Positions 4,925 to 57,450 are shown, counted from the first letter of the stretch. The stretch is DNA of 64,000 nucleotides from Azolla caroliniana (GCA_043228905.1 JBHGNT010000018.1:9858001-9922000), one strand, 5' to 3'. Program-made: numbers and translations. Notes: a model not told the origin generated them from the sequence alone.

Positions 4925-5255
4925 CTGCTCTCACTTCGCATAAAAATGAGCAACAACAACAAACTGTTTGCCCTAAGTCATATTTATACACATATGACTT
5001 TCGGGCTATTTACAAATATAGCCTCAAGGGCTCTTGGCAAACATATTCACAAATATGTCCCCGCATCCTGATCTCTCTCCGGGTACATTCGTCATCCGGC
5101 TCCGTAACCGGGGTCTTCATCATCCGGATCCGTATCCGGGTACTCTTCATCCGGCTTCATGCCGGGTACTCTTCATCATCCGGTTCCGTAACCGCAACCG
5201 GGCTTGCCGTCATTCATCTCCGGACATCCCATCCGGAGGGACCGAAATCCCAACA
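4624..5255 (-). repeat. 5' LTR of Copia A (632 bp)
   Basis: TGTTG...CAACA, adjacent to the tRNA-iMet PBS. Confidence 0.95.
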
Positions 5256-5608
5256 CCACCAACGTCCCATACCGCCGGATATTAGGATGACTAATACCTT
5301 GGAAGAGATAAACACGATCGTCGAGACGAAAGCCTAGCCTGCACCACCGGTGTCTACGACAGCAGCCTTCCGACGTGATTCTCCTATGAGGGTAGCTAAG
5401 CCTCATATTTATACCTTTTCCTAGGCCCCTTGAATAGATGTGCCTTTCTAAAAGGCTCTCTATTCATTGGTTGTCTAAATCATGATAGTGCATGCACATA
5501 TCATTCATTCTATCCAATCATTAGTCCCCTTTTTAATAATAGTGAACATACCCTTCACTAATGTAAATATTAGTGACCTACCCTCACCAACGTTATGTGT
5601 ACATAACA
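5256..5608 (-). repeat. Partial LTR of Gypsy family B, interrupted by Copia A
   Basis: Homologous to about 42332-42683 and to 56800-57151; ends TGTACATAACA. Confidence 0.9.
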
Positions 5609-6728
5609 GAAGCCGACCGTGGAGGGGGAACGGGCAAAGACACTTGGTGTTCAGCATCTCAACGTGCCACACTTGAGGGGGAGAACGGGCAAAGACACCG
5701 GAATGGGCAAAGGCAAAGAGAATGTCGATTGCGCCGGTAAGGGAAGAACCGACGAGGGGAGAGACAAGAAGAAGAAAGGAGCCAAGTTGACAAAGGAAGT
5801 TGACACATCCAAACAATTCGTAACAAGCGGCAACGGCGGCAAAGTCAAGAAGGACAGAGCTGACCTGAAGAAGAAGGCCAAGACCCGGACATGGTCCGAT
5901 GTGGTGAAGGGCCTAGAACTAGAAAACGAATCGGGAGCAACAAATTCGGACAAGAGCTGGAACGAGTTGGAGACAACCGATTCGGAATAACTAGATCAAT
6001 TCAAGGCCAAGAGGATGAGAGGGCAGCGAAAGTCGACGCCAACACGAAGGAATCAGCGAATCGGCGAGCGCCAAAGTCACAACAACGAGGGAGCTGAGTT
6101 GGGCTTGTTGAGCAAACAAGCCGACCGAGGAGGTCGAGGTGCGCAGAATGAGAAGGGTCGTGGAAAAAGGGACCGGACTGGACAAGGAGCGCGAACGAGG
6201 CAGAGTAAGGCTAGAAGGAGCCGGGTGGAAGGACCGACTGCCATGGAGACTGACACTACAATCTGACCTCAAGTTGAGCTTGAGGGGGAGTGTTGAGCTG
6301 CAAGCTCAACCGGATCCGGATCGGCTGAATAAGCCTGAGCCGGATCGTCATACGGAAGGATGAACCGGATCGGTGAGCCGGTGAGCAAGTGAGCTGGTGA
6401 GCCAGTGAGCAAGTGAGCAAGTGAACCGGATCGGTGAGCCGGATCCAGCAGTAACCGGAAGCTTAGTAACAACATAGGCTACTAAGTAGTTAATGTCTCG
6501 TAGTTACTGTCAGACGCTCATCTGAGCATTGAAGTACATCGTACTTTTGTCAGTCCATATGGAGTTGTCAGTCCACTGAACACATACAATGTATAGATTG
6601 AGTATTTTTTTAATTGAGTTTTCTGTGTGCTCTCTCTCTCTCTCTCTCTGTCTCCCCCGTGTACTATGTTTATTCTAAGCTCTCCATTAAACCTGCGTTT
6701 CTGTGTTCGGTTTTCTATTGCTTCCACA
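5609..6728 (+). mobile_element. 3' end of Copia family C: post-RNase H extension, PPT and 3' LTR (6291-6728)
   Basis: Homologous to the reverse complement of about 57450-58450; PPT TTGAGGGGGAG at 6280-6290 then TGTTGAG. Confidence 0.85.
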
Positions 6729-7511
6729 GGCTATTCTTTTACAAGTCCTTCATCCAGATTTTCTCCTTGACGGCTTTTACGACTGCCATGTACTCCGCCT
6801 TCGTGGTTGACAACGCAACCATCTTCTGCAGCCTCGACTGCCCTGATATAGCTCCCCTTGCATAAGTCATGACATATCCGGATGTAGACTGGTTGGTATT
6901 CGCATCAATTGACATATCCGAATCTGTGAATCCGTCAAGTTGGGGTTTACCGGAACCAAACCGGAGGCACATACTCGAGGTGCCTTCCAAGTACCGGAGT
7001 ATCCACTTGATTGCGTTCCAATGCTCTTTTCCGGAATTACTCATGAACCGGCTCACCACTCCGACTGGATTTCCAGCATCTCCCAGTTTCAGCTTGTACA
7101 CCCACTTGTTCCGGAGTGCTCTCTTCCCTTTCGGCCACTCCGTCAGGTCATATGTGTGCTTCTCATGCAGGGAATCCATCTCATCCTGCATGGCACTCAA
7201 CCACTTGCGCCTGTGGGCGTCTCTCTTTGCTTCTTCGAAGCTTTCCGGCTCCCCCTCATTGGTTAGCAGCACATGCTCTGCATCCGGAAATCTCTGGGGG
7301 GCACTTCTCTCTCGGAGAGTACATCTCCGTCCTTGGTTTCTGACTATCAATTCCTCTGTTTGTTCCTCATCCTCTTCCGATTCGAGATCTTGTCTGGTTT
7401 CGGTGTCTCCTCCTCCTCCTTCTTCTTCGGTCGGTTCGGTTTCTTGTCCGTATCCGACCGGTTCGTCGAGTGTCATCCGGTTACCGGCTAACATCCGGTT
7501 TTCAACCGTTA
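6729..7511 (-). pseudogene. Copia A-related pol fragment with the RT core deleted
   Basis: EPESFEEAK...NKWVYKLK.GDAGNP joined directly to VGVVSRFMSN...STTKAEY. Confidence 0.88.
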
Positions 7512-7778
7512 TGTCGTGAAGATCCGTCACTACGCGCGGATCGTGAGGCGGAACCATCGGGGTTCTAGACCGGATGGACTCGAAGTTTGCACTAGCTTTA
7601 GCGAGAAAGGAATTAAGATAGATTGAAAGAGAGAGAGATTGAGATAAGATAGAACACTTGACTTTAGATTGAGAGAGATTAAGATTGAACTCTTGAGTTT
7701 AGATTTGAAGAACAAGATTGATACATCAATTGGATAACGAAATTCTTACTGTTAATTTCTTGATTAATACAACTTTAA

Positions 7779-7858
7779 GGAAATGACTTGGCTTGGTGGT
7801 AAATATATTGCTTTTTATGTTGGAGGTGCAAGGTTCAAGTCTTGCTTATATCCCTTTT
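7779..7858 (+). promoter_or_regulatory. tRNA-like Pol III A/B-box cassette in D LTR (second copy at 11382-11461)
   Basis: A box TGGCTTGGTGG at 7789, B box GGTTCAAGTC at 7832 within a GCAAG/CTTGC stem, followed by TTTT. Confidence 0.65.
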
Positions 7859-8699
7859 AAAGCACAAAATACTATTAGGCTTTTGGACCAAATATCTTTA
7901 AAACACCATGCACCGTGATCAACCGATCCGATCGATTCGTCTGATTTACATCCGTTCGTTCTGGCCCGGTTTGGTCCGCATCCTGAGGTCGCTGGATGCT
8001 AGTAACTGGGTTTGCCGACACCGGTCAGTCACTGGTTGCCGGTTCCGTCGCCGGCTGGTCGTTGGTCGCCGTCTGTCCGTCCGGTTCCAACTCCATCGCT
8101 GTCCAAAACCAATGAACTTGGCTACATCCATTCATCAAGTCATTCTACTCATCCTTTCTATTCTCCACACATAGACAATGATAATAGCTTTTGCTCTGCC
8201 TTATATATGGTGAGATCCTTATTTGTCTTGTCTATGTGAGACATCTCACAATTTTTTATTTTTCTCTTTTTCTTTGCAAACTTTATACCCACATAACTTG
8301 ACACTTAGATGTCTGTTTGTTATGTAGCAAAGTGCATTCAAAAGCTCTTCAAGACCTCCATCTTTTTGTACCAAGATATTAAACTTATTTAAAATAGTGT
8401 CTTCACTATTATTGTTCTATATTTCGTGAGAAGAACCACACTCCATTTCGTATGTTCCTCACAAGTTTCACACCATTGCCGAAAATCTTCACGACATCCA
8501 CCCCCACCAAACTACACGTCCTCTGGTACGTGCTAAGAAGAGAGAATGTGAGATTTCGGCAATGGTGATTAGCATGACTCCTCCACGTCGAGCATGTCCA
8601 TTTCTTTGCACTCGAATCATCAATCCACCATATCATTCGCTTTTTCTTTGCTTTACCATGACTAGTTGTCATGGCCCCTTGTTCTCCTTTCGAACATAA

Positions 8700-10838
8700 C
8701 TCTTTAGGCTTTATGCATGTTCCACCTTTGTTTCGATCGTCTTCTTGCTCAAGGCACTTTGACCCATCGCACATTTTTGTTTTGTGTCTTTCATCCCAAG
8801 CCTCTATCTGAATAATGACATTGAATACCCCATGTAGTATCTTCAAGTGTATGCCAACGTCGAGATCCTTACACGACCATTTTTCATGCTTCTCATTTCG
8901 TCCATCGTTGTGGTTTCTTCTTATGTCAAAGTTCTCCATCGATTCCTCGATCTTAATGATAGTGTCCGCCTTCAAGTTGAATGTTACATCAATATTTTGA
9001 GGAATACCCTTCAAATCTTCTTGGCCCACTTGGCCCTCGTTTTTTTTTGTTGTGCTTTGCTAGGCCTCTTTCCCCCACACATAAGCTTCGACCCTGGCTT
9101 CCTCGTCGTCATTGTCCTTCTCTTGGGTCTGACATCGGTTAATGCCCAAGTTTCCAGAACGAGTGTGGAGAGATCCATATGTATTTGCTGGCCACGCCCT
9201 GACATTGTTATTTGCGTCAACTTGGACCTTCGCTTCCCCACCATCATCGTCTGTCTCTTGGGTCTCACGTTGTCTTTGATTTAGAACTGCCCAAGTCTCT
9301 AGAACATGTGCGAAGGAATCCATTTATCTTTGCTCAATCACCCTCGACACCTTTGTCTTGATGTCATCTTTCACATTAGATTTGAACTCCCCCTTGTTGC
9401 CACCTTCTGTCTCTTGGGTCTTCTATTGGTTCTTAGACGCAACTGCCCAAGTCTCTGGAACCAGTGAGGGGAAAGTCTTGTCACTGCCATCATTCACCAT
9501 CAACTCGTCCATATCTATCTTCACCTTGATGTTGTGCACACCATCTTAGTCCTTCTCCTTAATACCACCTTCCATCTCTTGGGTCTCACGTTGGTTCTTG
9601 GATGCAACTGCCCAAGTCTCCGGAACTTGTGTGAAGGAATCCTCAATGTGGCCATTTGCCATTAATTCTTTCATAGCCACCTCTGACTTGATGTCATTTA
9701 TTATGGCTATCTTGTCAATCTCATGGGCCTCATACCCATTGACCTTCTTGATCGAGCAAGCTTCAATTATCCTTCTCTCTTCGTCGCATGTATTCGTTTT
9801 GACCATCGGCTCCTCGCCGACACCTTCCATCACTTGGGTCTCACGTTGGTTCTTGGACGCAACTACCCAAGTCTCTGGAGCATGTGTGGAGAAAATCCGG
9901 CCATGGTCGTTGTCGACGCTTGTTATCTTTTTCATAGTCACCTCCTCGATGTAGTCTTTAGCGGCTAGATCCTCAATTACACTAGCCTTGCACTCTTTAT
10001 CTCCATTGATGCCGATTTGGTTTGTTCCATCATCTGTTGTTTCAAACATGACGCATGTTCTGAAACATTCCACCTCCTTTGAAATGGTTGCCATCGTCCT
10101 TGATTCATCATCAATCTTCTTTTCATGTTGAATGCGTTGTTTAGGCGTCTCAACTTCTTTAGCTGGTTTTGATTTTTCTACAGTTTGTCTTACCACGTCA
10201 ATATCATCGAGCCATCGATGACGCTTGTCGATCTTGTTGCATGCTTGCTTCACCGCAACCCAGTCCTGCACAAGCCCGTTCACTTGGGTATCATCTTCGA
10301 GGAGAGTTGGGGACTCTCATCTATTCTTCATGTCCATAGCTTTCAAGAAGTACAATGTCTTGTCCTCCTCAAGTAGCACTTGGTCCGTAGCGGGGAGACG
10401 ACGAAACATTTGGTCGAACTCGTCGTACACCTTCGAAGCACTTATCTTCTTATTTTTCTTCTCTATCCACCTCATCAAGGTATGTCGAGTCATCCTCGAC
10501 AAATCTTCCGTTGCAAACTCTGCTAATATTGATCTTTCAAACTCTAACCATGTTGTCTTTCCTTCTTGAAGCTCAATGACACGTCTTTAGATGTTGTTGG
10601 CAACAACTCTCTTGAAGCTTGCGATTCGACATGCTTCGGACATGTCCCTTTGATTCATCTCCATTCTATATGCATCAAGGAACTTCGTAATGTTCCTTCT
10701 GTCAAATTGACCCTCTAGCTCAACGACACGGTCGACAACCTTCTCCACGCTCGCATCGTTGTCTCGAGATCTCATCATTTGTTCGACGATCAACATCATC
10801 CTTTCAAACTCTCCCACTTGGTTGCTTGAGGATGCCAT
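8700..10838 (-). pseudogene. Degenerate Gag fused to an acidic ETWAVASKNQRETQ repeat array
   Basis: N-terminal part resembles the Gag at 22878-23861 (VDRVVELEG.F...ITKFL; LDKRRQW); stops and frameshifts present; 3' boundary approximate. Confidence 0.75.
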
Positions 10839-17800: not shown

Positions 17801-18169
17801 TAGCCCAAGTCACCTTGAACATCCTATGCTCCACACATTGATAGAATGAATATGTTTTGGTTTCCCTTATATATTCTGGGTTCCAATGTTGTCCTATCTA
17901 TGTGGGATATCTCACAATTTTGTCTTTTCTTTTCTTTTCTTCAAACTTCACACTCACATAACTTGATACTTGTTTATCCGTTTTATGCGTAGTAAAATAC
18001 GCTATGAAGCTCTTTAACACATCTATCTTTCTATATCCATATATTAAGCTAATCGTAAATAATTATTTTACTAGTTTTCATATCGTGTGTGGAAACCCAC
18101 ACGGCATTCACCCTCACCAAACCTGCACATCCACCGGTATGTGCCAATTGTGGTGAGGTTCCTCTTTTT

Positions 18170-33784: not shown

Positions 33785-35813
33785 ACTTGTAACCGGATGA
33801 CACTCAACGAACCGGCCGGATACAGACAAGAAACCAAACCAACCGAAGAAGAAGAAGAAGAAGACACCGGAACCGGACAAGATCCCGAATCGGATTCGGA
33901 TTCGGAACAAACGGAGGAACCGATAGTCAGAGACCAAGGATGGAGATATCCTCTCCGAGAGAGAAGAGCCCCCCCGGAGATTTCCGGATGCAGAGCACGT
34001 GTTGCTAACCGATGAGGGGGAGCCGGAAAGCTTCGAAGTAGCAAATAGAGACACCCACAACCGCAAGTGGTTGAGTGCCATGTAGGATGAAATGGATTCC
34101 TTGCATGGGAACCACACGTATGAACTGACGGAGTTGCCAAAAGGGAAGAGAGCACTCCGGAACAAGTGGGTGTACAAGCTGAAATCGGGAGATGCCGGAA
34201 ATCCACCAAGGTATAAGGCCCGAATCGTGGTGAGGGGCTTCTAGCATAAGAAAGGAGTGGATTTCGATGAGATCTTTGCCCCAGTAGTAAAGATGACATC
34301 CATCCGGACGGTATTGGGCATAACAGCAAGCATGGACCTCGAGGTAGAGTAACTGGACGTCAAGATGACATTCCTACATGGCGACCTCGAAGAAGAAATC
34401 TACATGCATCAACCGGAAGGATTTGAGAAGAAAGGGAAGGAGCACTTGGTGTGCCAGTTGAAGAAGAGCTTATACGGATTGAAGCAAGCTCCCCGGGAAT
34501 GGTACCAGAAGTTCGACTCCTTCATTTCCAACCAAGGGTACCACATGACGTAGGCCGATCACTGCATGTTTGTGAAGAAATTTGACGGAGGATATTTCTT
34601 GATACTCCTATATGTGGATGATATGTTGATCGTCGGACGAGACCAAGGCAAGACTCGGATGCTGAAGAAGGCTCTGAACCGGACCTTCTCAATCAAAGAC
34701 TTGGGTCCGGCAAGACAAATATTGGGTATGCACATCATCCGGGACCGGTCAAAGAAGCTGTTGTGGTTGTCACAAGAGAAGTACGTGACAAAGGTGCTTC
34801 AACAGTTCAACATGTCGGAGGCGAAAATGGCCGGATCGGCACTTCCGGCAAATTGCAACCTATCTGGAAAACAAAGTCCAAGGACAAAGGTGGAGAAGAC
34901 GGATATGATGAAGGTACCATATGCCTCTGCCGTCGGAAGTTTGATGTACGCGATGGTATGTACCCGGCCGGATATCGGATATGTAGTCGGAGTGGTGAGC
35001 CGGTTCATGAGCAATCCCGGAAGAGAGCACTGGAACGTGGTCAAGTGGATACTCTGGTATTTGAAAGGCACCTCGAGTATGTGCCTCCTGTTTGTCTTCG
35101 GTAATCCCCAACTTGACGGATTCACGGATTCGGATATGTCGGCTGATGCGGATACCAGCCGGTCTACATCCGGATATGTCATGATCTATGCAGGGGGAGC
35201 TGTTTCGTGGCAGTCGAGGCTACAGAAGACGGTTGTGTTGTGAACTACGAAGGCGGAGTACATGGTAGCGGTAGAAGCCGGCAAGGAGATAATCTGGATG
35301 AAGGACTTCATCGGAGAGCTAGGAATCCAACAAGAGGAATATCGGCTCTACTGCGACAGTCAAAGTGCCATCCATCTTGCAAAGAACACGGCCTACCATT
35401 CCCGGATGAAACATATCCAGCAAAGGTACCATTGGATCTGAGAGAAAATAGAAGATCAAGAGTTCATGCTGACAAAGATCCACACGGTGAAGAATGGGTC
35501 GGACATGCTGACCAAGGTGCTGACAACCGACAAGCTGGATACGTGCCAAAAGTGGATTAGGCTGGCGAGACATCCCATGCCAGAGTGAAGGGGGAGATTG
35601 TTGGGAAATCAGTCCCTCCGGATGGGATCCGGTTATGAATGAAGAGGACCCTGTGAGAACCAGAAAAGGAGACATATTTGTAAATATGTTCTGAGTAAGA
35701 CTATTGAGGCTATATTTGTAAATAGCCCTAAGTTCATATAAGTATATATATGACTTAGGGCAGCCACTTAAGTGATGGTGTTTTCTTATTATTGTATGCA
35801 TATAATTGTTGTA

Positions 35814-35855
<42 letters not shown>

Positions 35856-36097
35856 CAGAGCTATATACTCTGTTGTAACCGCCGACTGGCGAAGATATAG
35901 AGCTCAAGGTCGTTGCCTCCGAGTCTTTATTTTTTACCTTTCTTACATAGTGCTAGTTTGGAGTTTGTGGACTCCCATGGTTTTTCCCATTTAGGGTTTT
36001 CCACGTAAACATCCTGTGTACTCTCTATTGTGTGTGTGTGTGTGTGTACATGCGCTCACTCCCTACTTCCCATTTCTATGTTTGATTCTTATCGACA
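33785..36097 (+). mobile_element. 3' half of a Copia A-related element (RT-RNase H, PPT, 3' LTR 35599-36097)
   Basis: LLYVDDML, YCDSQSAI, ends RHPMPE*, PPT AAGGGGGAGA, LTR TGTTGGG...TCGACA; contains stops. Confidence 0.9.
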
Positions 36098-36452
36098 AGT
36101 GATTCGTGACTCGGCTGTGGCCGAGCAATATTCTGCGCTTAACTCATCATGATGCTGATGGTCAAAGAAAACCACGCGAGTGGGTCGAGGACCACTCAAC
36201 CGGACAACCGGATTTTGTACACAGAGGTGGACTTGCCCCATGCGTGTGGAGGATGAGGTGCGTCGGCACGCAATGGAGGACGGCCAGCAAGAGTAGAATG
36301 AAAGGCACCGAGACAGTGCCAACAACAGTTCAAGACCCTCCATGAGCAGGGGGAGTCAAAACGGTGTCGGAAACCGGCAAGGGAAGGCCAACACGGAATG
36401 CTGGTATTGTGGCAAGAAAGGCCACAAATAAAGCGAATGTTGGAAGAAGCGC
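36098..36452 (+). pseudogene. Copia C gag fragment
   Basis: MLMVKENHASGSR...ECWYCGKKGHK.SECWKKR, homologous to 61860-62160. Confidence 0.85.
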
Positions 36453-42211: not shown

Positions 42212-45200
42212 TGTTAAGAGTCTATTACTAATCAATAGACCAAAGTAAAGTAAAAGAACCAAAATAGATTGGATAGAAGAACCCATTCCACCCGACCACT
42301 CCCGAGCTATGATCTAGACATAGCCAACTGATCACCGAAGTCCCATACCGTCGAATATTAGGATGACTAATACCTTGGAAGAGATAAACACGATCGTCCA
42401 GACGAAAGCCTAGCCCACACCACCAGTGTCTAAGACAACAGCCTTCCAATGTAATGTACTTATGAGGGTAGCTAAGACTCATATTTATACCTTTTCCTAG
42501 GCCCTTGAATAGTCGTGCCTTTCTAAAAGGCTCTCCATTCATTGGTTGTCCAAATCATGATAGTGCATGCATCTATCATTCCTTCTATCCAATCATTAGT
42601 TCCCTTTTTAACATTAGTGAACATACCCTTCACTAATGTAAATATTAATGACCTACCCTCACCAACGTTATGTGTACATAACATACTCCCCCTACTTCAA
42701 AAGATTGCACTCTTGCAATATAAAGTGAGAAAATTGTGCCTTAAGAGTATGCTCACATTCCCGTAGACAATGACGTAGAGTCAGTAGGGACATGCAAAAA
42801 AAACTTTTTGACCAATAGTACATGCAGGAGGACGTCTATCCTGATCAACATAAAATCGAGCACGATCTTGAGCCGTCTTGACATTCTCTTTGGCAATATC
42901 CAACATTTGGTTCATGTCTTGCAAAAAATTGTGTGTACTGTCTAATGTGTCACAATGAATTGTGACATCAACTGGGGCATGTGGCTGAAAACCATACATC
43001 AACATAAAAGGAATATATCTAGTGGATGTATGTTCAGAGCTATTATAGGCAAATTCTAAGATAGGAAGGTATTGCTCCCACTTAGAAGGGGTTTTTGCTA
43101 CGTAATCTCGAAGCATGTCCTCGATAATTTGATTAACTCATTCAGTTTGTCCATCAGATTGAGGATGATCTGCGGAATTCATGCTTAACGTAGTTTCTAG
43201 TTTCTTAAAGACCTAAGTCCAAAAGTCACTAGTAAACTTGGAATCTCGATCACTAACAATATCCATCGGTAATCCATAAAAGCGAAATAACTCATCAACA
43301 AATTGATAAGCCAATTGTTGAGCGGTTGGCGTGGTTTTGGTAGGAATAAATCTAGCCAATTTTGTTAGTCTGTCAATGACAACCCAAATGACATCATGAC
43401 CCCTCTGTGTAAGAGGTAAACTAACAATAAAATCCATCGAGATACTTTCCCATTTGTTGTTGGAAATATCTAAGGGATGTAAAAGACCCGCAACTTTAAG
43501 TTGTTCTGACTTATTAATCCGACATTGTAAGCATTAAGGTACGTATTTATGCACGTCAAAGCACATCTTAGGCCAGAAAAAAGTACTCGAGATGAGAACA
43601 AGTGTGCGTTGTATTCCAGGATGACCAACAGATGGTGCATCATGACATTCATGAAGAATTTTCTGTTCTACGTTTGGTAAATCTAGAACATAGACCTTTG
43701 CACTACGGTAGAGCAAACCATTTGTAATGTGAAAGGTCACCTTCGAGGGTAGGGTGCTAGTATCGACATCTAAACCAAATTTGGCTTTCGTCCAGTATTT
43801 CAAAAAATAACTGTCATCAAGGTATTTCCCTCGAAGGTGATAAAAAAGATCAGATTTTATTTCTGTGAAGCTAAGCATGTTAACTTCTTTAATGCGACTA
43901 AGAACATCCGCAACAGTGTTCATAGAACCTTTGCGATACCATATGGAAAAATCAAAATCTTGCATAAGGTCAGCCCAATGGCCTTTACGACCAACAAGAT
44001 CTAGTTGGTCACAAAAATACTTCAATGATTGATGGTTTGTTGTAACCACAAATTTATTTCCATAGAGATAGTGCATCCATGTTTTAAGTGCATGTATTAC
44101 CGCCAACAACTCTTTCTCTTGAACTGAATACCGAGATTGAGCAGCACCAAGCTTCTTACATTCAAAAGAAATAGAGTGACCGCCTTGATAAAGAACGACA
44201 CCAATAGCATAATCACTAGCATCGGTTTTGATTGAGAAAGGCTTAGAAGGGTTTGGTAATAGAATAGTGGGAGCTTGGCACACATGCTCTTTGAGTGTCT
44301 CAAATAATTTGTCAAGTTGTTCATTCCATGCAATCGGTTTGATAGACTTACGTGGATGACCTTTAAAAAGGTCAGTTAATGGTGTAGTCAATTTGGAATA
44401 TTTACGAATTGATTTTCGTAAAAGTCCAACAAACCCTAAGAATGATCGCAATTCATGAATATTACGAGGAATGGGCCAAAGTTTAACCTTTTCAATACGA
44501 GAAGGTTCAATTTCAACACCATTTTCCGTAATTAAATGACCTAGGTACACAATCAATTTTTGGAAAAAATCACATTTTCAATGTTTTGCATAGAAAGAGT
44601 TGTCACTCAACTTTTGCAAAACAAATTGAACATGTTGAACATGATCTTACGAGGTACGGCTATATATCAAAATATCATCCAAGAAGATGACAACAAAATC
44701 ACCAAGTTGATCTTGGAAAATGTCATTCATCGCTTATTGGAATGTGGTTGGAGCATTAGTCAACCCGAAAGGCAGGACTAAAAACTCATAATGGCAATAG
44801 CGCGTACAAAAAGAGTTTTAAGGAATATCATCCTCGGCAATGCGAATTTGATGATAACCTGTTCGTAAGTCAATTTTTGTAAATTATCGGGCCCCATGCA
44901 AATGATCAATCAAATCATTAGCACGAGGTAACGGATATGCATTTTTAATTGTCATTTTATTCTAACGGCGATAATTGATACACATTCACCATGAACCTTC
45001 CTTCTTCTTAATGTGATTTACTATACCTAATGTGGCCCATGCTCAAGTATTCATTAAGTTGTTTAGTGATCTCATCCTCTTCTAATCGACTAAGTCGGTA
45101 AGGTGAAATGCTCACAAGAGCAGCACTGGGGATGAGTTCAATTTGATGGTCCACATTACGTTTTGGTGGTAAAGTAAGCGGCAATTCGTTAGGAAATACG

Positions 45201-48200
45201 TCTTGAAAATCATCTAAAATAGGGTCGAGTAATCGTTGTTCATAATGTGTTAATTGTGTGGCATCAATAATAAAATAATAAAATTGAAGCGCATGATCAA
45301 TTACACATGAATAAATTAATGAACTAGAATGCTCACTTAACGATTTAGAAGACACAAGTGAACGAGAAGGAAGTTTGGAACATGGAATAAAATGTTTACA
45401 ATTATTAAGTTCAAATGTGATTGAGTGATTAACCCAATCAATGGACAAAGAAGGGTTTTTATTAAAAAACCAAGGGTATCCTAAAATGACATGAAAGTCT
45501 AGCTTCTCCAAATAGGTATCTATTTGAATTGGTAGTTGACAAACAATGCCATTGATGTATTGAACGCTTCCATTTGCCATGTGAACTTGAGAGATATGAT
45601 CACTTGCGTTTATGTGGAGTTCCATTTGCTGCACAAAGTGATCATTAAGAAAACTGTGAGAACTACCGGAATCAAACAAATAAATATGCTTGTGTTCCAT
45701 TGATATACCCGACTGCTTGGAGTAAATCATTAGGTCCAAGTAAATGTGAAGGAAAAGTGCATTCACATGAACTTAAGTGGTTGGTATGAACTTAAACAAC
45801 ATCAAAAGACTCCCCTGTGTGACTCGTAGATTTGTCTTGAGGAGGGGTGTTCATTGACTTTCTCTCAAGCTGACGACATGTATCCTTTGTGTGGCCTCGC
45901 TTCTTGCAATATGCACACAAGAGGTTCGGTTTCTTGGAGTCGCGGTCAAGAGTGTCACTGGATTGCTTACATTTCCCAATGAACTTGACATTTAGAGTTT
46001 TGGCGAACTCAAGTTTATTGTGGTTTTTCTTAGAAGTCCTATGATACTAAAGTACAATGTTGACGGCTTCCTCGAAAGTTGCGGGGTCCTTGTCATGGAC
46101 AATCCAATGGTAATCCCCCTTTGGAATACCATTCAAAAAGCAAGCAACAAACCATTTCTCACCCGTAAGTCCTGATTTTTGGATATGGGTCCAAGTATGA
46201 TGCACATAATCCTCGAGAGACATAAATGGGTTACTTGACAACATGAGCAAGTGTTGCGCTTGTTCAGTTTGAGAAGGTGGCTACAAAAATTGTTTCTTAA
46301 AAACATCAATGAAACCTTCCCAAGTTGTGGGTAAGTTCTTTGGAGTCCTTAGGCCGCGCCACCAAGCAGTAGCTCGGCCACCTAACTCATGACCGACATA
46401 ACCAATTTTTACAACATCGGGCTTGGGGTGGAGCTCAAAATGAGACTCCCAACGACCAAGCCAAGTGCTAATGGCCTCCTCGGTTCTTTCTTTCTTATCT
46501 CCCTTGAATGGTATTACTACGTAAGAAGGCTCACCTTCTTTCTTGGACTCAATAGTCAATTCTTGGAATTTCTTTTCCAAAGCCATATTGGCCTGCCTCA
46601 TTTCGGCCAATTGATTCAAGGTAGTAGTGAGCAATTGCTCAATAGTGATCTCAACTTGTGTGCGAGATGCGGATTGGAGTTGAGAGGTCTCGGTCAGAGA
46701 GATTGCTCCAACAACGTTTCAAAACTTGTTCCATGATGTAAGTTGTGGGCATGCAATATAAATAAGGAGGTTCAGAAAATACAGAAGCAAAATGAATGCT
46801 TGAAATTTTGATTGTAAGAACTTTACCAAGAAAGCATCTCACGTCTTTACCCCTCTAGACATATGAGATGTGATTCAAGATCCGATAACTATGGTAATAC
46901 TATGGTGTTTTTAAAACCATGCGGGAAAACATAGCTAAGATGTCTTTCTCAAATCTCTATCTTGAATAATCATGGTGGCTCCCAAAGGCTCAACCATGGT
47001 TCTAACATCAACGTAGTTTCCTAGTTAGCCTTATATTAGAATGCCAACCCAACATGTATTGATATGGTCGAGAAAGTGTATTACGTGAAAAAGCAAGTGC
47101 ACTCGCAAGTAATATTCTAGTCTTGCAAGTAACAAGCAAATGTTATGACAAAAAATGATAAAATAAGGCACTACCCGTTATAGGCAAGTAGTGACAAAAA
47201 CAAGGGTCAAAAAACCCATGTTCTACCTACTAAAAAAATATCACAAATAAATGGATGGTGCGAGGTATGCACATATACATCCAAATATGGTGGTTGTAAT
47301 TCGCACAATTGTGACATTGTGCGCAAAGATGTAGCACTCAAATTTATGAGTAAAACATCAATAGGGGAACTCATATGATTTCACTTGAGTTCTAAGGCTC
47401 AATAATATGAGTTAAACCTAGATGACCCATTGGAAATAATCATTTAAAAAGCGGCATGATGCCCAGTCAATACGAAAAAGATAGACTACACAAAATTGTT
47501 ACCCAATAGGGAAACACATGTAAATAGTGTAGATGAACATAAAAATTAAGGTTTAAAAAATAGTGAATTGTGGGTGAGTAGATGAAAATCATAAGAAAAT
47601 CTTAAGAAAGGGAGAAGATAACTTGTGTAATTAAAAATAGGTAGAATAATAATCAATTAGGTGTATGAACATTAAGCATGCCTTAAGGTATGAAACCCTA
47701 AGGTAGTCAACATGCACCTCCTCAAGACCACCACATCTCCCTAGAATCGGCCAATTGATGGCTCAATAAAGAGTAAAGTGGCATAGGTAAGCGACATATA
47801 CCTCGTTAAGGCCACAACATCCCATAGAATCGGCCAAGTGATGGCTCAATAGAGAGTAGAGTGGCATAGGTAGGTGGCATACACCTCGTCAAGACCACAA
47901 TATCCCATAGAATCAGCCAAGTGATGGCTCAATAAAGGGAAGAGTGGCATACTCAACATCATATGCAAAAGGGCCATGAGGTGAGCGTGTACGATTAGGG
48001 CAAACACGCTCGACCCGATGCACAAGAATAATTAATATCGTAAGAGATGGCTCAAGAGAGGGGAGAGTGGGAGATACATCGCAATATGCAAAAGGGCCAT
48101 GACTTGAGCGTGTGCGATTAGTGCAAACACGCTCGACCCGATGCATAAGTAGATTAACATCGTATGATGGTAGAAAGAAGAAAGAAAAGAAAAGAAAACG

Positions 48201-48504
48201 TAATACCACTTCCATATGACCAAGAAAAAAGCATCATAAGAAAGAAAAGAGAGATCGAGAAAGAAGAATACCAGGTTAAGAATGTTGTTTTGATCCTGTG
48301 AAGAGCATGATGAGCCTTGTAAGATCCCCATCGCTCACACGCAAAAAACATCAAAACAACCAAAAAAATTTGTTAGTAAATGCTCTGATACCACTGTTAA
48401 GAGTCTATTACTAATCAATAGATCAAAGTAAAGTAAAAGAAGGAAAATAGATTGGATAGAAGAACCCATTCCACTCGACCACCCCCGAGCTATGATCTAG
48501 ACAT
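42212..48504 (-). mobile_element. Degenerate Met-primed chromovirus-type Gypsy (family B); 3' LTR 42212-42683, 5' LTR begins at 48395 and is interrupted at 48504
   Basis: PBS at 48382-48393, Gag with CAYCKKRGHTKDTC, protease LFDSGSSH, RT FTKIDLRTGYHQIRI, INT MDFIVSLP, PPT GGGGGAGTA. Confidence 0.9.
47705..48150. repeat. Tandem repeats in the family B 5' UTR (~85-bp unit x3, ~120-bp unit x2)
   Basis: AGAATCGGCCAA(T/G)TGATGGCTCAATA-like unit three times; ATATGCAAAAGGGCCATGA...CGCTCGACCCGATGCA twice. Confidence 0.8.
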
Positions 48505-51500
48505 TGTTGAGAATCGATTCGTAAAACCACAAGATCAAACAATACTGAAAATACACAACACAGCCACACAACGACGCAGGACACAGATACTTACGTGGAT
48601 CCCTAAAATGGGAGAAAACTAGGGGAGAGGAAAAACTTCACTATACATTGGATGTCAAGGACAGAGATTACAATACTTTGATTATGAGTGTATCAACCAC
48701 ACAGGGTTCTTAGCGTCCGCTATTACGCACACAACTATGGCGCTGTTGTCACTCTCCTTCTCTCTCTCTCTCTCTCTCTTTCGCACAACTCTCACTTCTT
48801 TTTTTCGCCTGTTTTGCCCTAGATGTATATATCAACTGATACATCGTATATACTATTTACAATTGTAGCCACTACTATATATCATTGATTATTATGATTA
48901 CTATAATAACAATGATAATAATCTATTCAAACAATCGGCTCTCTGTGTCGACTCTTTGATTGTCGACTATCGGTTGTCGGCTACTTTCGATGAGTCGGTT
49001 CCTCCCACTAGAGGGACATATTCCCAACAAAATCCCCCTTCACTCTTGTGGGAGGGAGTCAATCAATCCTGTCTTCTGTCGACAAACTTTAAGTCTGTCC
49101 ATAGGTAGGTTCTTCGTGAGCATGTTGGATCCATTGTTATCTATGTGGATCTTCACAAGTGTGAACTCTCCTTCTTTGACCTTCTCCCACAACCAGTGAT
49201 ACCTTCTCTGTATGTGCTTGGTCCGGAAGTGATATGCAACATTCTTGGCAAGATGTATGGCACTCTAGCTATCACCGTGAAGCAAGAACTCCCTCTGCTT
49301 CATCCCTAGCTCGTTGAGAAAATTTCTCACCCAAATAAGCTCTTTGCCGACCTCTACCACTGCCATATACTCTGCCTTTGTAGTCGACAAGGCTACGGGC
49401 TTCTGCAATCCTGATTGCCATGACACTACTCCCCCTCCATAAGACATCACGTACCCTGACGTGGATCGACTTGAGTCTACATCTCCCGACATGTCCAAGT
49501 CGGTAAAACCTTCCAACACAGGTTTTCCGACACCATACCCTAGACACACCCTTGAGGTGCCTTTTAAGTACCTAGGTATCCACTTCACTGCTGCCCAGTG
49601 CTCTCTTCCTGGATTACTCATATATCAGCTTACTGCTCCCACAACAAATGCTATGTCTGGTCTCATACAGACCATAGCATACATTAGACTGCCGACGACC
49701 GAGGTATATGGTACCTTCCTCATCTCGGCCTTCTCCTTCTCCCCTTTCAGACTCTGCTTCGCATTCAACCTGCAATTTGTCGGCAACACCAAGCTGACTG
49801 GCTTTGCATCCAACATGTTGACCCTCTCTAAGATCTTCGTCACATACTTTTGTTGTGACAACCATAGCACCTTTTGAGTTCTGTCTCGAACTATGTGCAT
49901 TCCTCAGATTTGTTTAGCCTGTCCAAGGTCTTTCATGGAAAACGACCTGCTTAGAGCTTTCTTCAAGCTTCTGATCTTTTTTGTGTCTTGACTGACTATC
50001 AACATGTCATCAACGTATACCAAGAGAATCAAGAAGTCTCCTTCTTCATATCTTTTGACGAACATAGTGATCGGCCTATGTTTTCTGGAACCGGTGTTCC
50101 ATCATGAAGGACTCGAACTTCTTGTACCATTGGCGTGGAGCTTGTTTCAGACCATACAAGCTTTTCTTCAGTCGACACACCAGGTTCTCTTTCCCTTTCT
50201 CCTCAAAGCCTTATGTCGTGAAGGTCTGTCACTACGTGCAAATCGTGAGGCGGAACCGCCGGGTTCCTGGACCGGAAGGATTCAAAGTTCGCACTAGCTT
50301 TAGCGAGAAAGTATTGAAGATAGATTGAGAGAGATTGATATGGTGAGAGAGAGATATTGAGATAAAGATTTAACTCTTGATTTTAGATTTGACAGAGAAG
50401 ATACATCAACAATAGGATTACAAGTTTTCTTATTTTTCCCAAATTTTACATTGACATAACTTGACATTTAGTTGTCCGTTTCAAATATAGTAAAGTACAT
50501 TCGGAAGCTCTTTAAGACCTCCATCTTCCCATACCAAGATATTAAGCTAATCTAAAAATAGTATCTTGACTATTATTGTTTCATGTCTTGCGTGAAGAAC
50601 CACACTCGATTTTGTACATTCCATGCAATTTTCACACCGTTGCCGAAAATCTTCACAACATCCACCCCCACCAAATAGCATGTCCTCCGGTACATGCCAA
50701 GAAGAGTGAGTGTGAGATTTTGGCTACGGTGATTAGTACGATTCCCTGCACACAATACACCCTTCACTCGAACCATTGTCGCCACCCAATCCACCATATC
50801 ATTCGCTCAGTCTTTGTTTTACCATGACCAGTTGTCACGGCCCCTTATTCTCTTTCCGAACATAATTTTTTAGGTTTTATGCATGTTCCACCTTTGTCCC
50901 GATCGTCTCCTCGCTCAAGGCACTTTGACCTGTCACTTCTCCCCAAGCCTTTATCTGAATAATGACATTGACTATCCCATGTAGTACCTTCAAGTGCATG
51001 CCCACTTTGAGATCCTTATGCGACCATGCTTTATATTTCTCACTTTGTCTAGTTTCATGATACAATCTCATGTTAGAGTTGAAAATCTTCACACTAGTGT
51101 CTTTGCTAGATGTTTCGTTCACATTCTTCGGATCTTGATGGCTCGCTTGGCTATCCTCATCCGTTGTCATACTTTGCTCAGAGTCTTTGTTGTATGCATC
51201 AACTTTTGTCTCTATGCTTTGCTTGACCTCTTCCTCCCACACATCAGCTTCAACCCTTGCTTCTTCGTTGTCATTGTCCTTCTCTTGGGTCTTACATCGG
51301 TTATTTCCCAAGTCTCCAGAACAAGTGTGGAGAGATCCATATGTATTTGTCTGCCACTCCCCAACATTGTTATTTGCAGCAGCATGGACCTTCGCTTCCC
51401 CGCCATCATCTTCTGTCTCTTGGGTCTCACATTGGCTTTGAGCCACAATTGCCCAAGTCTCTAGAACATGTGCGAAGGAATCCATTTGTCTTCAGCCAAT

Positions 51501-54500
51501 TACCTTCGACACCTTTGTCTTGATGTCATCTTTCACATCAGATTTGAACTCCCCTTTGTTGCCACCTTCCATCTCTTGGGTCTTCTGTTGGTTCTTGGAC
51601 GCAATAGCCAAAGTCTCTAGAACCAGTGTGGGGAAAGTCTTGTCACTGCCATCATTCACCATCGACTCGTCCATATCTATCTTCACCTCGATGTTGCACG
51701 CACCATCTTGGTCCTTCCCCTTACTACCACCCACATCAGATTTGAACTCCCCTTTGTTGCCACCTTCCGTTTCTTGGGTCTTCTATTGGTTCTTGAACGC
51801 AACTGCCAAAGTCTCTAGAACCAGTGTGGGGAAAGTCTTGTCACTGCCATCATTCACCATCGACTCGTCCATATCTATCTTCACCTCGATGTTGCGCGCA
51901 CCATCTTGGTCCTTCCCCTTACTACCACCTTACATCTCTTGGGTCTCACATTGGCTCTCTACAACTGCCCAAGTCTCGAGAACTTGTGTGAAGGAACCCT
52001 CGACGCGGCCATTTGCCATTAATTCGTCCATAGCCACCTCTGACTCGATGTTTTCTTTTTTGTGGCTATCGCTTCAATCTCATGGGCCTCGTACCCATTG
52101 ACCCTCTTGATCGAGCAAGCTTCGATTATGCATCTCTCTTCGTCGCATGTATTAATTTTGACCTTCGGCTCCTCGCTGACACCTTCCGTCTCTTGGGTCT
52201 CATGTTGGTTCTTGGACGCAACTGCCCACGTCTCTAGAACAAGTGCGGAGAAAATCTAGCCATGGTCGTTGTCGACACTTGTTCTCTTTTTCATAGTCAC
52301 CTCCTCGATGTTGGTTTTAGTAGGTAGATCCTCCATCATGTTGATCTCACACTCTTTATCTCCCTCAATGCAAGCTTCGATTAGGCTTGCTCCTTCATCA
52401 TCCATTGTTTCGAACACGATGCGCGTCCTGAAACATTTGTCCTCCTTTGAAGTGGCCTTTGCCGTCCTCGAGTCATCATCAATCTTCTTTTCGAGTAGGA
52501 TGCGTTGTTTAGGCGTCTCTACTTCTTTAGATGGTCTTGATTTTTCTACGCTTGGTCTTACCAAATCAATATCATCAAGCCATTGACGACGCTTGTCAAG
52601 CTTGTTGCATGCTCGCTTCACCGCAATCCAGTCTGTCACAAGCCCGTTCACTTGGGTATCATCTTCTAGGAGAGTTCCCAATTCTCGTCTATCCTTCATA
52701 TCCACAGCTTTTCAAGCAGCATTTGGTTTGTACTTCTCAAGCAGCATTTGGTTTGTGGCCTGGAGACGACGAAACATTTGGTTGAGCTCGTCGTACACCC
52801 TCGAAGCACTCATCTTTTTATTCTTCTTTTCTTTCCACTTCATCAAGGCATGTTGAGTCATTCTCGACAAATCTTCCGCCACGAACTCCGCTAATATCGC
52901 TTTCTCGAACCCAGACCATGTGGCCTTCCCTTCTTGAAGCTCAACAACAAGCCTTCAGACATTTTTGGCGACCACTCTCTTGAAATTTGCGATTTGACGT
53001 GCTTCAAACACGTCCCTCTGATTCATCTACCTTTTGTATGCATCAAGGAACTTCGTAATGTTCCTTCCGTCAAATTGGCCCTCGAGCTCCACGACATGGT
53101 CGACGGTCTTCTCCACGCTCGCATCATTGTCTCGAGATCTCATCATTTGTTCGACGATCAACATCATCCTTTTGAACTCTCCCGCTTGATTGCTTGAGGA
53201 CGCCATCTCCAAGTATTGGTTGATCCTTGACTTGATCCTTCCTACCGCCTCTTTCACGTCAGGTTCACCACTTAACTATGTCGTGAAGATCCGTCACTAC
53301 GTGCGGATCGTGAGGCGGAACCACTGGGGTCCTGGACCAGAAGGATTCAAAGTTCGCACTAGCTTTAGCAAGAAAGTATTGAGAGAGAGAGATATTGAGA
53401 TAAAGATTTAACTCTTGATTTTAGATTTGACAGAGAAGATACATCAACAATAGGATTACAAGTTTTCTTATTTTTCCCAAATTTTACATTGACATAACTT
53501 GACATTTAGTTGTCCGTTTCAAATGTAGTAAAGTACATTTAGAAGCTCTTGAAGACCTCCATCTTCCTGTACCAAGATATTAAGCTAATCTAAAAATAGT
53601 TTCTTCACTATTATTGTTTCATATCTTGTGTGAAGAACCACACTCGATTTTGTACATTCCATGCAATTTTCACATCGTTGCCGAAAATCTTCACGACATC
53701 GGGTTGCTCCATGTAGATTTCTTCTTCTAGCTCCCCATGTAAGAATGTAGTTTTGACATCCAATTGTTCGATCTCCAGGTCCATACTGGCCACTATACTC
53801 AGAACAGTTCGAATGGATGTCATCTTCACGACTAGTGCGAATATTTCGTCGAAATCGATGCCCTTTTTCTATTGAAAACCCTTCACCACTATCCGGGCTT
53901 TATACCTGTGCTCACTGCCGGCTGCTCCAGTCTTCACCTTGTAGACCCATTTATTCCTGAGTGCTCTCTTACCTTTCGGTAGCTCTACTAGGTCATAGGT
54001 GTGATTCTCGTGCAAGTATTCCAACTCATCTTGCATCGCACTCAACCATTTCTCTCTGTGCTCGTCAGCAATGGCTTCTTCATAGCACTCCGGTTCACCT
54101 TCATCAATCAAGAGGATGTATTGACTGGCATATGTTGTTGGTGCTTCCCTTTCTCTAAGTGGGTATCGCCTTCCACTCATTGTTGGCTCTCTTTCAGATG
54201 TCTCTGCCAACTCTTCTCTTTGCTCGGGTTCCTGCACGTCAATCGGCATCTCCAGGTTGGACGACTCCAACTCATACTCTTCAATTGACCTTAGCAGCTC
54301 TGCCAACTCAAACTCATAGTCGGTACATGCATTTACCCCAAACATCCGAACACCCTCAGGTGTTGGTACGAGACATCCTTCCCTGTCCACACTCTTTGTG
54401 GGACATCACCCTTTAATGGTACTAAGAGAGACCTGTTGATCACCTAAACAACTGTGTACATAACCTCAACCCCAATAGGATTTCGGCAAATTTGCATGAG

Positions 54501-56799
54501 AGAGCATGCTCCTTACCCTCTTCATGATTGTTTGATTCATCCTCTCTGCAAGCCCGTTCAACTATGGGGTCTTTGGCACTATGTATTCGATCCGAATACC
54601 TTGGCATTTGCAGTATTCCTCGAATTGCCCTCTATACTCGCCATCGTTGTCGGTTCGAACAACCTTCAACTTCTGACCCGACTCTCGTTCAGCTCTAGCC
54701 TTGAACTCCTTGAAAACCGACAGTACTTGATCCTTCGACTTCAATACGAAGACCCATGTCTTCCGACTATAGTTGTCGATGAACGTCACAAAATATTGTC
54801 CACCTCGATGCGATGGAGCATCTACATAACACACATCCGTGTGTACCAGTTCTAGTGCAACCTCTCTTCTTCTTGGTGGTCTTGTGTGGAATGCTGATCT
54901 ATTCTGCTTTCCGACCAAGTAGTTGACGCACTTCTCTAGGTGCACTCCCATGACTTCTGGTAGAAGCTTTTGGTTGGCTAGCAGGTGCATACCTTTCTCA
55001 CTCATGTGTCCCAACCTCTTATGGCATCTCTCTCCTGCCGAGTCGGTTGCCACATTTACATCCAATTTGCACAATCAGGCATGCATCATATATAATGTGC
55101 CTTCTTTCTGTGCTCGGGCCACTATAAGATATCCTCGGCAGAACTTCCACTTGCCATTCCTTCGTCATCTAACCTTCCAGTTGATATCAGATTGAATCAG
55201 ATATCGGGGACGTGTCAAACATCCTTCAGAGTCAGTCGACGCCGTCAAGCGGACACTTCCAACTTCGGCTATCTTGCACTCTCCATTATCACCGATTTTC
55301 ACATAATCGTGATCTCCGGCTATGTAAGTTGAGAAATACTCCTCGACGGAGTTATGTGGAACGATGCCCCGGAATCGATCACCCAAGTGCATTCTTCACT
55401 TGCAAGATTTGCACTTGTCTGTTCACAGATGAACACCAGTTCTTCATTGCTCGTAGCAATGGCAGAAGTGTTCTTCTCATCAGGAATCTTCTTGGGTTCG
55501 ACATTGTTTCCGACACCCTTGTCTTTTCTCATGTGTCGGTAGTCCTTCTGGAAGTGTCCAGGTTTACTACAGTAAAAGCACACTAGCTTACCTCTAGAGT
55601 TCAATCTAGTTTGGGACTTTTCTCTCCTTGGTGGACTTCTTTGCTGGTTCCTTCCTCTGTCCGAATGTTGTGTTACATTCGACTCCGACTAGGACAGGAC
55701 TCCCTTGTCCTTCCTCCTTGCCTCCTCATTTAGGATGCTTGTCTTTATGGTTTGTAAAGACAAGTTCTCTTCTTGACAAGAGGTGTTGAGAGGGACCACC
55801 AGGTTCTCCCAACTATGCGACAGTGTGCACATCAACAAGATGGCCTGCATCACATCATTCAAGGGAAACTTGGTTGCAACAAGTTGATTCACATACCCCA
55901 TGAATGTGTTGATGTGTTCGACGATGCTCTCACCATCCCTATATTTCAGCCGTATGATCTTTCTGATCAGTGAGGTTCTATTGAACGTGTTCTTCCTCTC
56001 ATATAGACTCGACAACTTCTGCCACATCTCATGCGCATTTGTGTCGTTCGCTACATGTTGCAAGACACTTACATCGATGCATTGTTGGATGATGGCCATT
56101 GCCTTTCTGTTAAGAAGTTTCCAATCTGACTCCAATACCCCCTGGGTATATCTGTTCTGTCGACTGGCTCGTACAGGTCTTTGACTATGAGAAGGTATAA
56201 GGTCCTCCATCTTTATCTTCTAGTCTGCATAGTTCTGTGACTTTAGAACTATCATGCTTGGGAAGCCGCTCACACCTCCTTCCATGCTTGCACATCAAGC
56301 TCTGATACCAGTTTGTTGAGAATCGATTGGTAAATCCACAAGATCAAATCATACTGAAAATACACAACATAGCCACACAGTACACAGATATTTACGTTGA
56401 AACCCTAAAACCGGAGAAAACCACGGGAGAGGAAAAACTTCACTATATAGTGGATGTCAAGGACAGATATTACAAAACTCTGATTAGGAGTGTATCAACC
56501 ACATAGGGTTCTTAGCGTCTTCTATTACGCACACAACTATGGCGCCGATCTCACTCTCCTTCTCTCTCTCTCTCTCTCTCTTTCGCACAACTCTCACTTC
56601 TTTTTTTCTTCTATTTTGCCCTAGATGTATATATCAACTGATACATCATAGCCACAACTACATATCATTGATTATTATGATTACTATAATAATAATGATA
56701 ATAATCTGTTCAAACAATCGACTCTTCAACTGTCAACTATCGGTTGTCGGCTACTTCCGAACACTCGGTTCCTCCTGTTGGAGGGACATATTCCCAACA
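48505..56799 (-). mobile_element. Degenerate Copia (family E, related to A); LTRs 48505-49029 and 56314-56799; hosts D copy 2
   Basis: PBS at 56299-56310, PPT at 49030-49043, Gag/PR/INT/RT/RH remnants; LTRs visibly diverged; no TSD. Confidence 0.92.
50214..53698 (-). mobile_element. Non-autonomous gag-only Gypsy (family D, copy 2); LTRs 50214-50660 and 53279-53698
   Basis: Trp-type PBS 53253-53270, PPT 50661-50672, same gag plus ETW array as 8497-10910; splits host EEEIYMEQP|EGFEEK. Confidence 0.92.
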
Positions 56800-57450
56800 C
56801 CACTGACGTCCTATACCGTCGGATATTAGGATGACTAATACCTTGGAAGAGATAAACACGATCGTTGAGACAAAAGCCTAGCCCGCATCACCAGTGTCTA
56901 AAAGAGCAACCTTCTGACGTAATGTCCTTATGAGGGTAGGTAAGCCTCATATTTATACCTTTTCCTAGGCCCTTGAATAGTCGTGCCTTTCTAAAAGGCT
57001 CTCCATTCATTGGTTGTCCAAATCATGATAGTGCATGCATCTATCATTCCTTCTATCCAATCATTAGTCCCCTTATTAACATTAGTGACCATACCCTTCA
57101 CTAATGTAAATATTAGTGACCTACCCTCACCAACGTTATGTGTACATAACATACTCCTCTACTTCAAAAGATTGCACTCTTGCAATATAAAGTGAGGAAA
57201 TTGTGCCTTAAGAGTATGCTCACATTCCCGTAGACAATGACGTAGAGTCAGTAGGGACATGCAAAAAAACTTTTTGACCAATAGTAAATGCACGAGGACG
57301 TCTATCCTGATCAACATAAAATCGAACATGATTTTGAGCCGTCTTGACATTCTCTTTGGCAATATGCAACATTTGGTTCATGTCTTGCAAAATATTGCGT
57401 GTACTGTCTAATGTATCATGATGAATTGTGACATCAACTGGGGCACGTGG
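56800..57450 (-). mobile_element. Family B LTR remainder (56800-57151) followed by the PPT and integrase end of a second B copy
   Basis: 57152-57450 matches ~42684-42984. Confidence 0.88.

What the first reader, a model, noticed from the sequence alone, without database searches (positions are those of the whole stretch)
5250..56815. Two different Copia families abut the same nucleotide of the family B LTR
Seen: Copia A junction CCCAACA|CCACCAACGTCCCATACCG (5255/5256) and Copia E junction CCCAACA|CCACTGACGTCCTATACCG (56799/56800) are at the same position of the B LTR and in the same orientation. The left junction of E (48504/48505) maps about 10 bp away in the uninterrupted B LTR (42320-42335), with no TSD. 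A is very young and E is old, and their LTRs differ. Inference: sequence- or structure-specific targeting of one retrotransposon's LTR by a Copia clade, or a homology-driven junction using CCAAC shared by both ends.
Basis: partly seen in the sequence, partly recalled or inferred. Interest (0 to 1): 0.7.

Follow-up and report, generated by a model that had tools for sequence, protein, structure and literature searches.

The report
Retrotransposons landing at one LTR spot
Two different plant jumping genes end at the same base of a third one's terminal repeat, and a further element from a public contig ends four bases away, but one family's other insertion sites look random, so this is likely a mild landing preference or chance, not strict targeting.

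Summary
The 5' LTR ends of Copia A (young) and Copia E (old) both join chromovirus B's LTR at 42331/42332, in B's orientation. E's other end joins 10 bp away, with no TSD.

Strict targeting is not supported. A-type ends have diverse flanks in public contigs (99 and 85 contigs in two runs, agreement 0.37-0.40, as random as B's own flanks), no listed contig bridged the junction, and relative A' sits elsewhere. CCAAC homology predicts a join that is not seen.

One independent hint favours a soft hotspot: the only clear LTR-element insertion among 27 other B LTRs (L006) lies 4 bp away, same orientation (p about 0.015-0.08). The exact match has p about 0.002 per pair, which a large scan will meet by chance.

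E's missing bases fit local decay: 5 of 26 B LTRs have deletions there, and the host LTR is the middle LTR of a tandem B.

Odds: soft hotspot 0.5, chance 0.35, strict targeting 0.04. An unchecked scan note (e1-10618240) read a different nest in this genome as a local pile-up.

The parts
1..508 (-). Copia A 3' LTR (cut by the window start; about 124 bp and the TSD lie outside)
   Evidence: 505 of 508 identical to 4748-5255; PPT follows at 509
519..4661 (-). Copia A gag-pol frame, 1380 aa without a stop, Tnt1/Tork-like
   Evidence: (Copia gag, rve, RVT_2)
4624..5255 (-). Copia A 5' LTR, TG..CA, 632 bp; Met-type PBS at 4610-4620
5256..5608 (-). B-family LTR hosting A (equals B 42332-42683); no PPT beyond it, flanked by F-like Copia sequence
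   Evidence: 322 of 352 matches to B1; outer flank
33792..36143 (+). A', a decayed relative of A whose 3' LTR ends next to F-like Copia gag, not in B
42212..42683 (-). B1 3' LTR, uninterrupted, 472 bp; TATA-like box at 42489-42482; PPT at 42684 onward
   Evidence: termini confirmed by 41-59 loose-end contigs per end and run
42317..42336 (.). Candidate landing zone in the B LTR: junctions at 42321/22 (E left), 42327/28 (L006), 42331/32 (A and E right)
42684..48394 (-). B1 internal region, decayed Ty3/Gypsy pol; lacks about 306 bp of the integrase C-terminus with the chromodomain; Met-type PBS at 48383-48393
48395..48504 (-). Left part of the B LTR hosting E
   Evidence: 105 of 110 identical to 42212-42321
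48505..56799 (-). Copia E, decayed; LTRs 48505-49029 and 56314-56799; PBS 56300-56310; both termini intact, no TSD
50212..53700 (.). Element G nested in E (LTR pair differs at 21 of 424 sites)
56800..57151 (-). Right part of the B LTR hosting E (equals B 42332-42683)
   Evidence: 328 of 352 identical to B1; shares rare alleles with B1 at 42513, 42514, 42572
57152..57450 (-). PPT and 300 bp of a second, tandem B internal region (B2), cut off by a join to Copia F
   Evidence: 285 of 299 identical to 42684-42984; same 306-bp loss as B1

Best explanation
A and E are two different Copia elements whose intact ends join the same base of two separate copies of a chromovirus LTR, and they are likely independent integrase insertions into a stretch of about 15 bp that LTR-element integrases likely use more often than average but far from exclusively. 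Shown: the junctions, the intact termini, separate host copies, very different ages, a third element (L006) 4 bp away in the same orientation, and random-looking flanks for the A family. Inferred: the preference comes from the target's local DNA or nucleosome geometry, as described for Ty1 and ATCOPIA93, and not from base recognition or homology. Inferred history of E: it entered the 5' LTR of a B copy soon after that copy inserted, later lost 15 bp (10 bp plus one TSD) on one side, took up element G, and an unequal crossover in the U3 half of the LTR then made B tandem. Which E end marks the original site is open, so E's true site is either A's or 15 bp away.
For: Junction panel. L006: PBS, 308-bp TG..CA LTR, joined at B 42327/42328, same orientation; it is the only clear LTR-element end among 27 B LTR loci; chance of falling within 5 bp is 0.029, with orientation 0.015, or 0.079 if only the part left of the search pattern counts. 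Three sites within 16 bp in one orientation: 0.0008 under a uniform model, two of them preselected. Not exclusive: flanks, A', and no cluster at the site among the listed loose ends. E's history: left plus middle parts of the host LTR differ from B1 at 25 of 256 sites (9.8%), like E's LTRs (9.3%), while the U3 part differs at 4 of 206 (p 0.003); B1 and B2 share a 306-bp loss; 5 of 26 loci carry deletions of 5 bp or more over the zone. Precedent: ATCOPIA93 peaks about 55 bp from the dyad (10.1101/447870, passages); Ty1 has two hotspots per nucleosome (PMC3545840, first part read).
Against: The independent support is a single low-coverage contig (L006, about 2x), whose family is only weakly placed (score 71 against F, 55 against A, shuffle maxima 54 and 51). 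No listed contig bridged the A junction in four runs and one search listed no non-B cluster at the site, though contigs drop rare forms and only 24 of 802 and 24 of 178 loose-end rows were shown. LTRs were the least-targeted regions across 12 genomes (PMC6911290, section 7). ATCOPIA93 did not prefer well-positioned or +1 nucleosomes (10.1101/447870, passage). No nucleosome data exist here. A symmetric target preference does not explain the shared orientation (1 in 4 by chance).
Confidence: 0.5

Rival explanations
1. Coincidence. Three ordinary nested insertions happen to lie close together, helped by a small deletion that may have moved E's right end onto A's base.
For: p about 0.002 per pair gives a 43% chance of at least one such match in 264 pairs and 88% in 1000 (one pair per window is my assumption, 264 is the number of noted windows). 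Random A flanks. Deletions are common over the zone. Plant TSD sequences are nearly random, 1008 of 1024 5-mers seen (PMC6317226, passage).
Against: L006 was not preselected and fell 4 bp away in the same orientation (p 0.015-0.08).
Confidence: 0.35
2. Strict targeting: the A/E clade's integrase recognises this B LTR position, by sequence or through a bound factor, and mostly inserts there.
For: Same base and orientation for two families of one lineage and very different ages.
Against: 99 (X1) and 85 (X6) contigs leave the A-type end into flanks with agreement 0.37-0.40, like B's own 0.36-0.40 (these rows include the PPT side). All 32 listed longest pieces of 3401 laid are B-only, 5255-5308, and the one joint listed is elsewhere. 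A' is not in B. 0 of 27 other B LTRs carry an A/E-type end.
Confidence: 0.04
3. Homology-driven join: the CCAAC shared by the Copia end and B guided recombination or a deletion to the same breakpoint twice.
For: CCAAC lies 3 bp left of the site in most B copies; E has lost flanking bases.
Against: The predicted product keeps B's CT after CCAAC; both junctions lack it and keep the full Copia CA end, with only one shared base. None of 27 loci reads CCAACA there. L006's end has no CCAAC.
Confidence: 0.04
4. E is a recombinant of two E-family insertions 15 bp apart (one at GACAT, one at CCACC). This would give intact ends, no TSD and exactly 10 bp lost, and would add a fourth insertion to the zone. 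It is compatible with the best explanation and replaces only the deletion step.
For: Both E termini are intact at the breakpoints; E's LTRs have 19 transversions, 26 transitions and 4 gaps and are more diverged than pooled B1/B2 (45 of 485 against 43 of 761, p 0.017).
Against: The excess disappears when only the host parts next to E are compared (9.8% against 9.3%); both host halves carry B1-lineage alleles.
Confidence: 0.2
5. Assembly artefact.
For: No reads of the source were available; neither junction was seen bridged; assemblers can produce PBS-LTR-PPT joins (as in high-coverage L004).
Against: The two B flanks differ by 8% and have different outer neighbours; junctions fall exactly at TG..CA termini; A is young and may be absent from the samples laid.
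Confidence: 0.03

Closest known systems
Nested plant LTR retrotransposons with regional preference (Jedlicka et al. 2019, PMC6911290; abstract and sections 7, 8 read)
   Same: LTR elements inserted in other LTR elements; non-random positions; link to predicted nucleosome occupancy; weak palindrome effect.
   Different: There LTRs are the least-used regions, preferences are regional, and similar nested pairs always differed by at least 50 bp; here sites are 0-15 bp apart inside an LTR and cross superfamilies.
Nucleosome-guided Ty1/copia integration: ATCOPIA93 (10.1101/447870, passages) and yeast Ty1 (PMC3545840, first of two parts)
   Same: Copia integrases can have position-level peaks set by nucleosome geometry, which in a repeated target would recur at the same bases.
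   Different: Those targets are H2A.Z-rich genes or Pol III upstream regions, shown with thousands of new insertions; here the target is a chromovirus LTR, with three cases and no chromatin data.
Tork lineage of Ty1/copia (Tnt-1, Tto1; Neumann et al. 2019, PMC6317226, passages)
   Same: A has the Copia domain order, a Met-type PBS and 46-63% identity in the integrase region to proteins several of which are named TNT 1-94.
   Different: Best hit only 62% over the full region; no tree against reference lineages was made.
Three-LTR and TSD-less elements from unequal recombination (Cassandra in pear, PMC4079214, passages)
   Same: A middle LTR shared by two internal regions, and intact elements without TSD (198 of 1373 intact copies there).
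   Different: Here the tandem element is a full-size chromovirus and its middle LTR carries a nested Copia.
Tethered site-specific integration: Ty3-TFIIIB, Ty5-Sir4, Tf1 (as summarised in PMC3545840)
   Same: Would give fixed position and orientation.
   Different: Those elements insert mostly at their targets; A-type ends here do not.

Membership tests
Ty1/copia (A, E) | gag-PR-INT-RT order with RVT_2 | tested here: met
   A: Copia gag 73-216, rve 525-622, RVT_2 888-1129; E fragments in the same order
Ty1/copia (A, E) | TG..CA LTRs, PBS and PPT | tested here: met
Ty1/copia (A, E) | 4-6 bp TSD | tested here: inconclusive
   E has none; A's second flank is outside the window
Tork lineage (A, E) | Placement in the Tork clade in RT/RH/INT trees | not tested
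   Only hit names (TNT 1-94) and Table 1 of PMC6317226; no reference set in the script box
Chromovirus Ty3/gypsy (B) | PR-RT-RH-INT order and integrase chromodomain | tested here: met
   Window B1: protease, RNase H, integrase zinc finger; family contig L004 has rve, SH3_Tf2-1 and Chromo, E 3.3e-08; B1 and B2 lack that stretch
Site-specific (tethered) LTR retrotransposon | Most family insertions at the target | tested here: not met
   Diverse A-type flanks and no listed bridging contig; A' elsewhere
Site-specific (tethered) LTR retrotransposon | Conserved target motif or structure | tested here: not met
   First flank base not enriched; folding z -1.62 and 0.00; the three sites differ (CCAC[C/T], CCTAC, GACAT)
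Site-specific (tethered) LTR retrotransposon | Integrase contact with a host factor bound at the target | not testable with these tools
   No candidate factor
Nucleosome-guided soft hotspot | Enrichment of independent insertions in a narrow zone | tested here: inconclusive
   1 of 1 unselected insertions in the zone; contig tables truncated
Nucleosome-guided soft hotspot | Positioned nucleosome with the zone about 55 bp from the dyad | not testable with these tools
   No chromatin data; the zone is GC-rich (48-55%) beside an A-rich U5 end (28-35%)

The most novel reading that the evidence does not exclude
Several Copia families, across ages and related species, are steered to one narrow, orientation-fixed landing site about 160 bp downstream of the TATA box in a chromovirus LTR, by a factor or nucleosome bound there. 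One retrotransposon superfamily would then exploit another's promoter region as a safe, transcribed harbour.
Probability: 0.12. Interest if true: 0.75.

Novelty: new member of a known kind. Interest (0 to 1): 0.35.

Why it matters
Plant LTR-retrotransposon integration is thought to be nearly blind to target sequence, and LTRs are reported as the least-used nesting sites. A base-level, oriented landing zone in another element's LTR would give a natural many-copy substrate for studying how Copia integrases read chromatin, and the claim can be tested with one genome assembly. If it is chance, the locus is an ordinary nest and a warning about coincidences found by large scans.

Tried and rejected
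Own-genome survey and A's TSD: no genome held; assemblies behind the loci not held. B LTR pattern in viral and prokaryote collections: 0 matches; A-type terminus in viral contigs: 0. Contigs on the B LTR: the only listed row at the site (X1, 42333, 7 contigs, median 9 letters) ends in ordinary B letters and reflects B1's private substitutions at 42329, 42330 and 42332; up to three longer loose ends in it cannot be read apart. The letter and indel tables were empty despite known differences, so I do not rely on them. Absence of bridging contigs is weak evidence: contigs drop rare forms, a bridging piece may be about as short as the 54-letter pieces listed, and the runs may be other species. Other breaks in the 27 loci (L005, L006 right side, L010, L017, L020) show no clear LTR end and were not counted as insertions. 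Hairpin or palindrome target: not better than shuffles. Host younger than E paradox: resolved by region-wise comparison. A +1-nucleosome version of the mechanism was weighed and not adopted, since ATCOPIA93 does not prefer +1 nucleosomes. Look-alike scan notes by sequence and by words: none.

Full report
Observation. The window is a nest of plant LTR retrotransposons. Copia A lies on the minus strand with an open 1380-aa frame and LTRs that differ at 3 of 508 sites. Copia E (48505-56799) is also on the minus strand, decayed, with LTRs differing at 45 of 485 sites. They are different families of one lineage: 55-72% amino-acid identity, LTRs alike mainly at the terminus. Both 5' LTR ends continue into family B at base 42332 of the intact B LTR. 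E's other end joins at 42321/42322, so 10 bp are missing and no TSD exists. The two host LTRs differ at 28 of 351 sites and have different outer neighbours, so they are separate copies.

What B is. B is a Ty3/Gypsy element with a 472-bp LTR (42212-42683); public contigs break off at exactly these termini, 41-59 contigs per end and run. A family contig, L004, encodes integrase, SH3 and a chromodomain, so B is a chromovirus. The site is base 352 of the LTR in B's sense, 157 bp after a TATA-like box. That the plant is a fern comes only from unchecked scan notes; I did not test it.

History of the E locus. The LTR holding E has a PBS on its left and a PPT with 300 bp of B internal sequence on its right. 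It shares rare alleles with B1, and the two internal regions share a 306-bp loss that L004 and L001 lack. So it is the middle LTR of a tandem B. Divergence from B1 is patchy: 5 of 110, 20 of 146 and 4 of 206 (p 0.003). The parts flanking E give 9.8%, close to E's own 9.3%, and G inside E gives 5.0%. My inference: E entered B's 5' LTR early, and a later crossover in the U3 half made the tandem. With a 5-bp TSD, 15 bp were lost on one side of E. Deletions of 5 bp or more cover this zone in 5 of 26 other B LTRs, the maximum over all 20-bp windows (mean 1.4), although these are mostly old copies. E's original site is therefore either A's or 15 bp away. A recombinant of two E insertions gives the same product and is not excluded.

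Test of homology. Of 27 B LTR loci from one metagenome scan, 21 read (C/T)CAACCTA before the site and none reads CCAACA. Annealing at CCAAC would leave CT in the product. Both junctions lack it and keep the whole Copia terminus. They look like integrase-made ends. CCCAACA is simply this lineage's LTR end; A' has it too.

Test of targeting. Contigs of four runs were laid on the A junction. In X1, 72 plus 27 contigs, and in X6, 68 plus 17, leave the A-type end into other sequence with agreement 0.37-0.40; the only recurring flank is the element's own PPT. B's own random flanks give 0.36-0.40. The first flank base is C in 27 of 99 and 17 of 85, as expected from 23%. The 32 longest pieces listed, of 3401 laid, are all B-only, and the single joint listed is not at the junction. 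On the intact B LTR no cluster of foreign ends at the site was among the 24 of 802 rows shown. A' ends beside a Copia gag. These results exclude dominant targeting. They cannot exclude a weak hotspot, because contigs drop rare joins between two abundant repeats and the runs may be related species.

Evidence the other way. Locus L006 carries a PBS and a 308-bp TG..CA LTR of a third family, joined to B at 42327/42328 in the same orientation. It is the only clear LTR-element end in about 9.7 kb of B LTR seen in the 27 loci. The chance of landing within 5 bp is 0.029, 0.015 with orientation, or 0.079 on the narrowest reckoning. It is one contig at about 2x coverage, and its family is weakly placed. 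The A/E match itself has p about 0.002, which 264 such pairs would meet 43% of the time (the number of pairs is assumed).

Mechanism. I favour independent insertions into a mildly preferred zone (0.5) over chance (0.35). Copia integrases have nucleosome-level peaks: about 55 bp from the dyad for ATCOPIA93 (10.1101/447870, passages) and two per nucleosome for Ty1 (PMC3545840, first of two parts). In a many-copy LTR such peaks would recur at the same bases; this step is inference. Against it, ATCOPIA93 did not prefer well-positioned or +1 nucleosomes, LTRs were the least-used nesting sites in 12 genomes (PMC6911290, abstract and sections 7 and 8), and the site has no unusual fold.

Comparison with print. 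Nesting, three-LTR elements and missing TSDs are known (PMC4079214, passages; PMC12477314, three passages; PMC6317226, passages). Seven searches (listings only unless named above) showed no report of several Copia families sharing a base-level site in a Gypsy LTR. The library lacks most subscription papers, and no supplements were read.

Verdict. A real coincidence of junctions; the strong claims fail; a soft hotspot is open and cheap to test. Interest 0.35.

Noticed in passing
L006:45-385: A third LTR element with PBS and 308-bp LTR ends 4 bp from the A/E site in a B LTR, same orientation; the B piece is then cut at 42421 and joined to F-like RT sequence.
   Followed up: yes
window 42751-42762 and 57218-57229: B1 and B2 both lack about 306 bp that in L004 encode the integrase C-terminus and chromodomain.
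   Followed up: yes
window 57450: B2's internal region is fused to Copia F, whose left LTR lacks about 50 bp of its end; F's right flank is an unrelated Gypsy pol, so F has no matching flanks either.
   Followed up: partly
window 7509-11620, 16331-25454, 50212-53700: Three elements with related LTR starts (G family); two sit in A/E-lineage Copia internal regions at different positions.
   Followed up: no
window 16815-17788 and 24711-25136: Tandem duplications of about 380 and 230 bp inside the LTRs of element C.
   Followed up: no
window 5609-6568 and 36151-36452: Both the B copy hosting A and the relative A' are inserted in F-like Copia sequence.
   Followed up: partly
runs X1, X3, X6, X10 on window 5203-5255: The A-type LTR end is very abundant in three runs and nearly absent in X10, while B is abundant in all four, suggesting a lineage-limited A burst.
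   Followed up: no
L009, L013, L018, L019, L022, L026: Small internal deletions cluster around the site in older B LTRs.
   Followed up: partly
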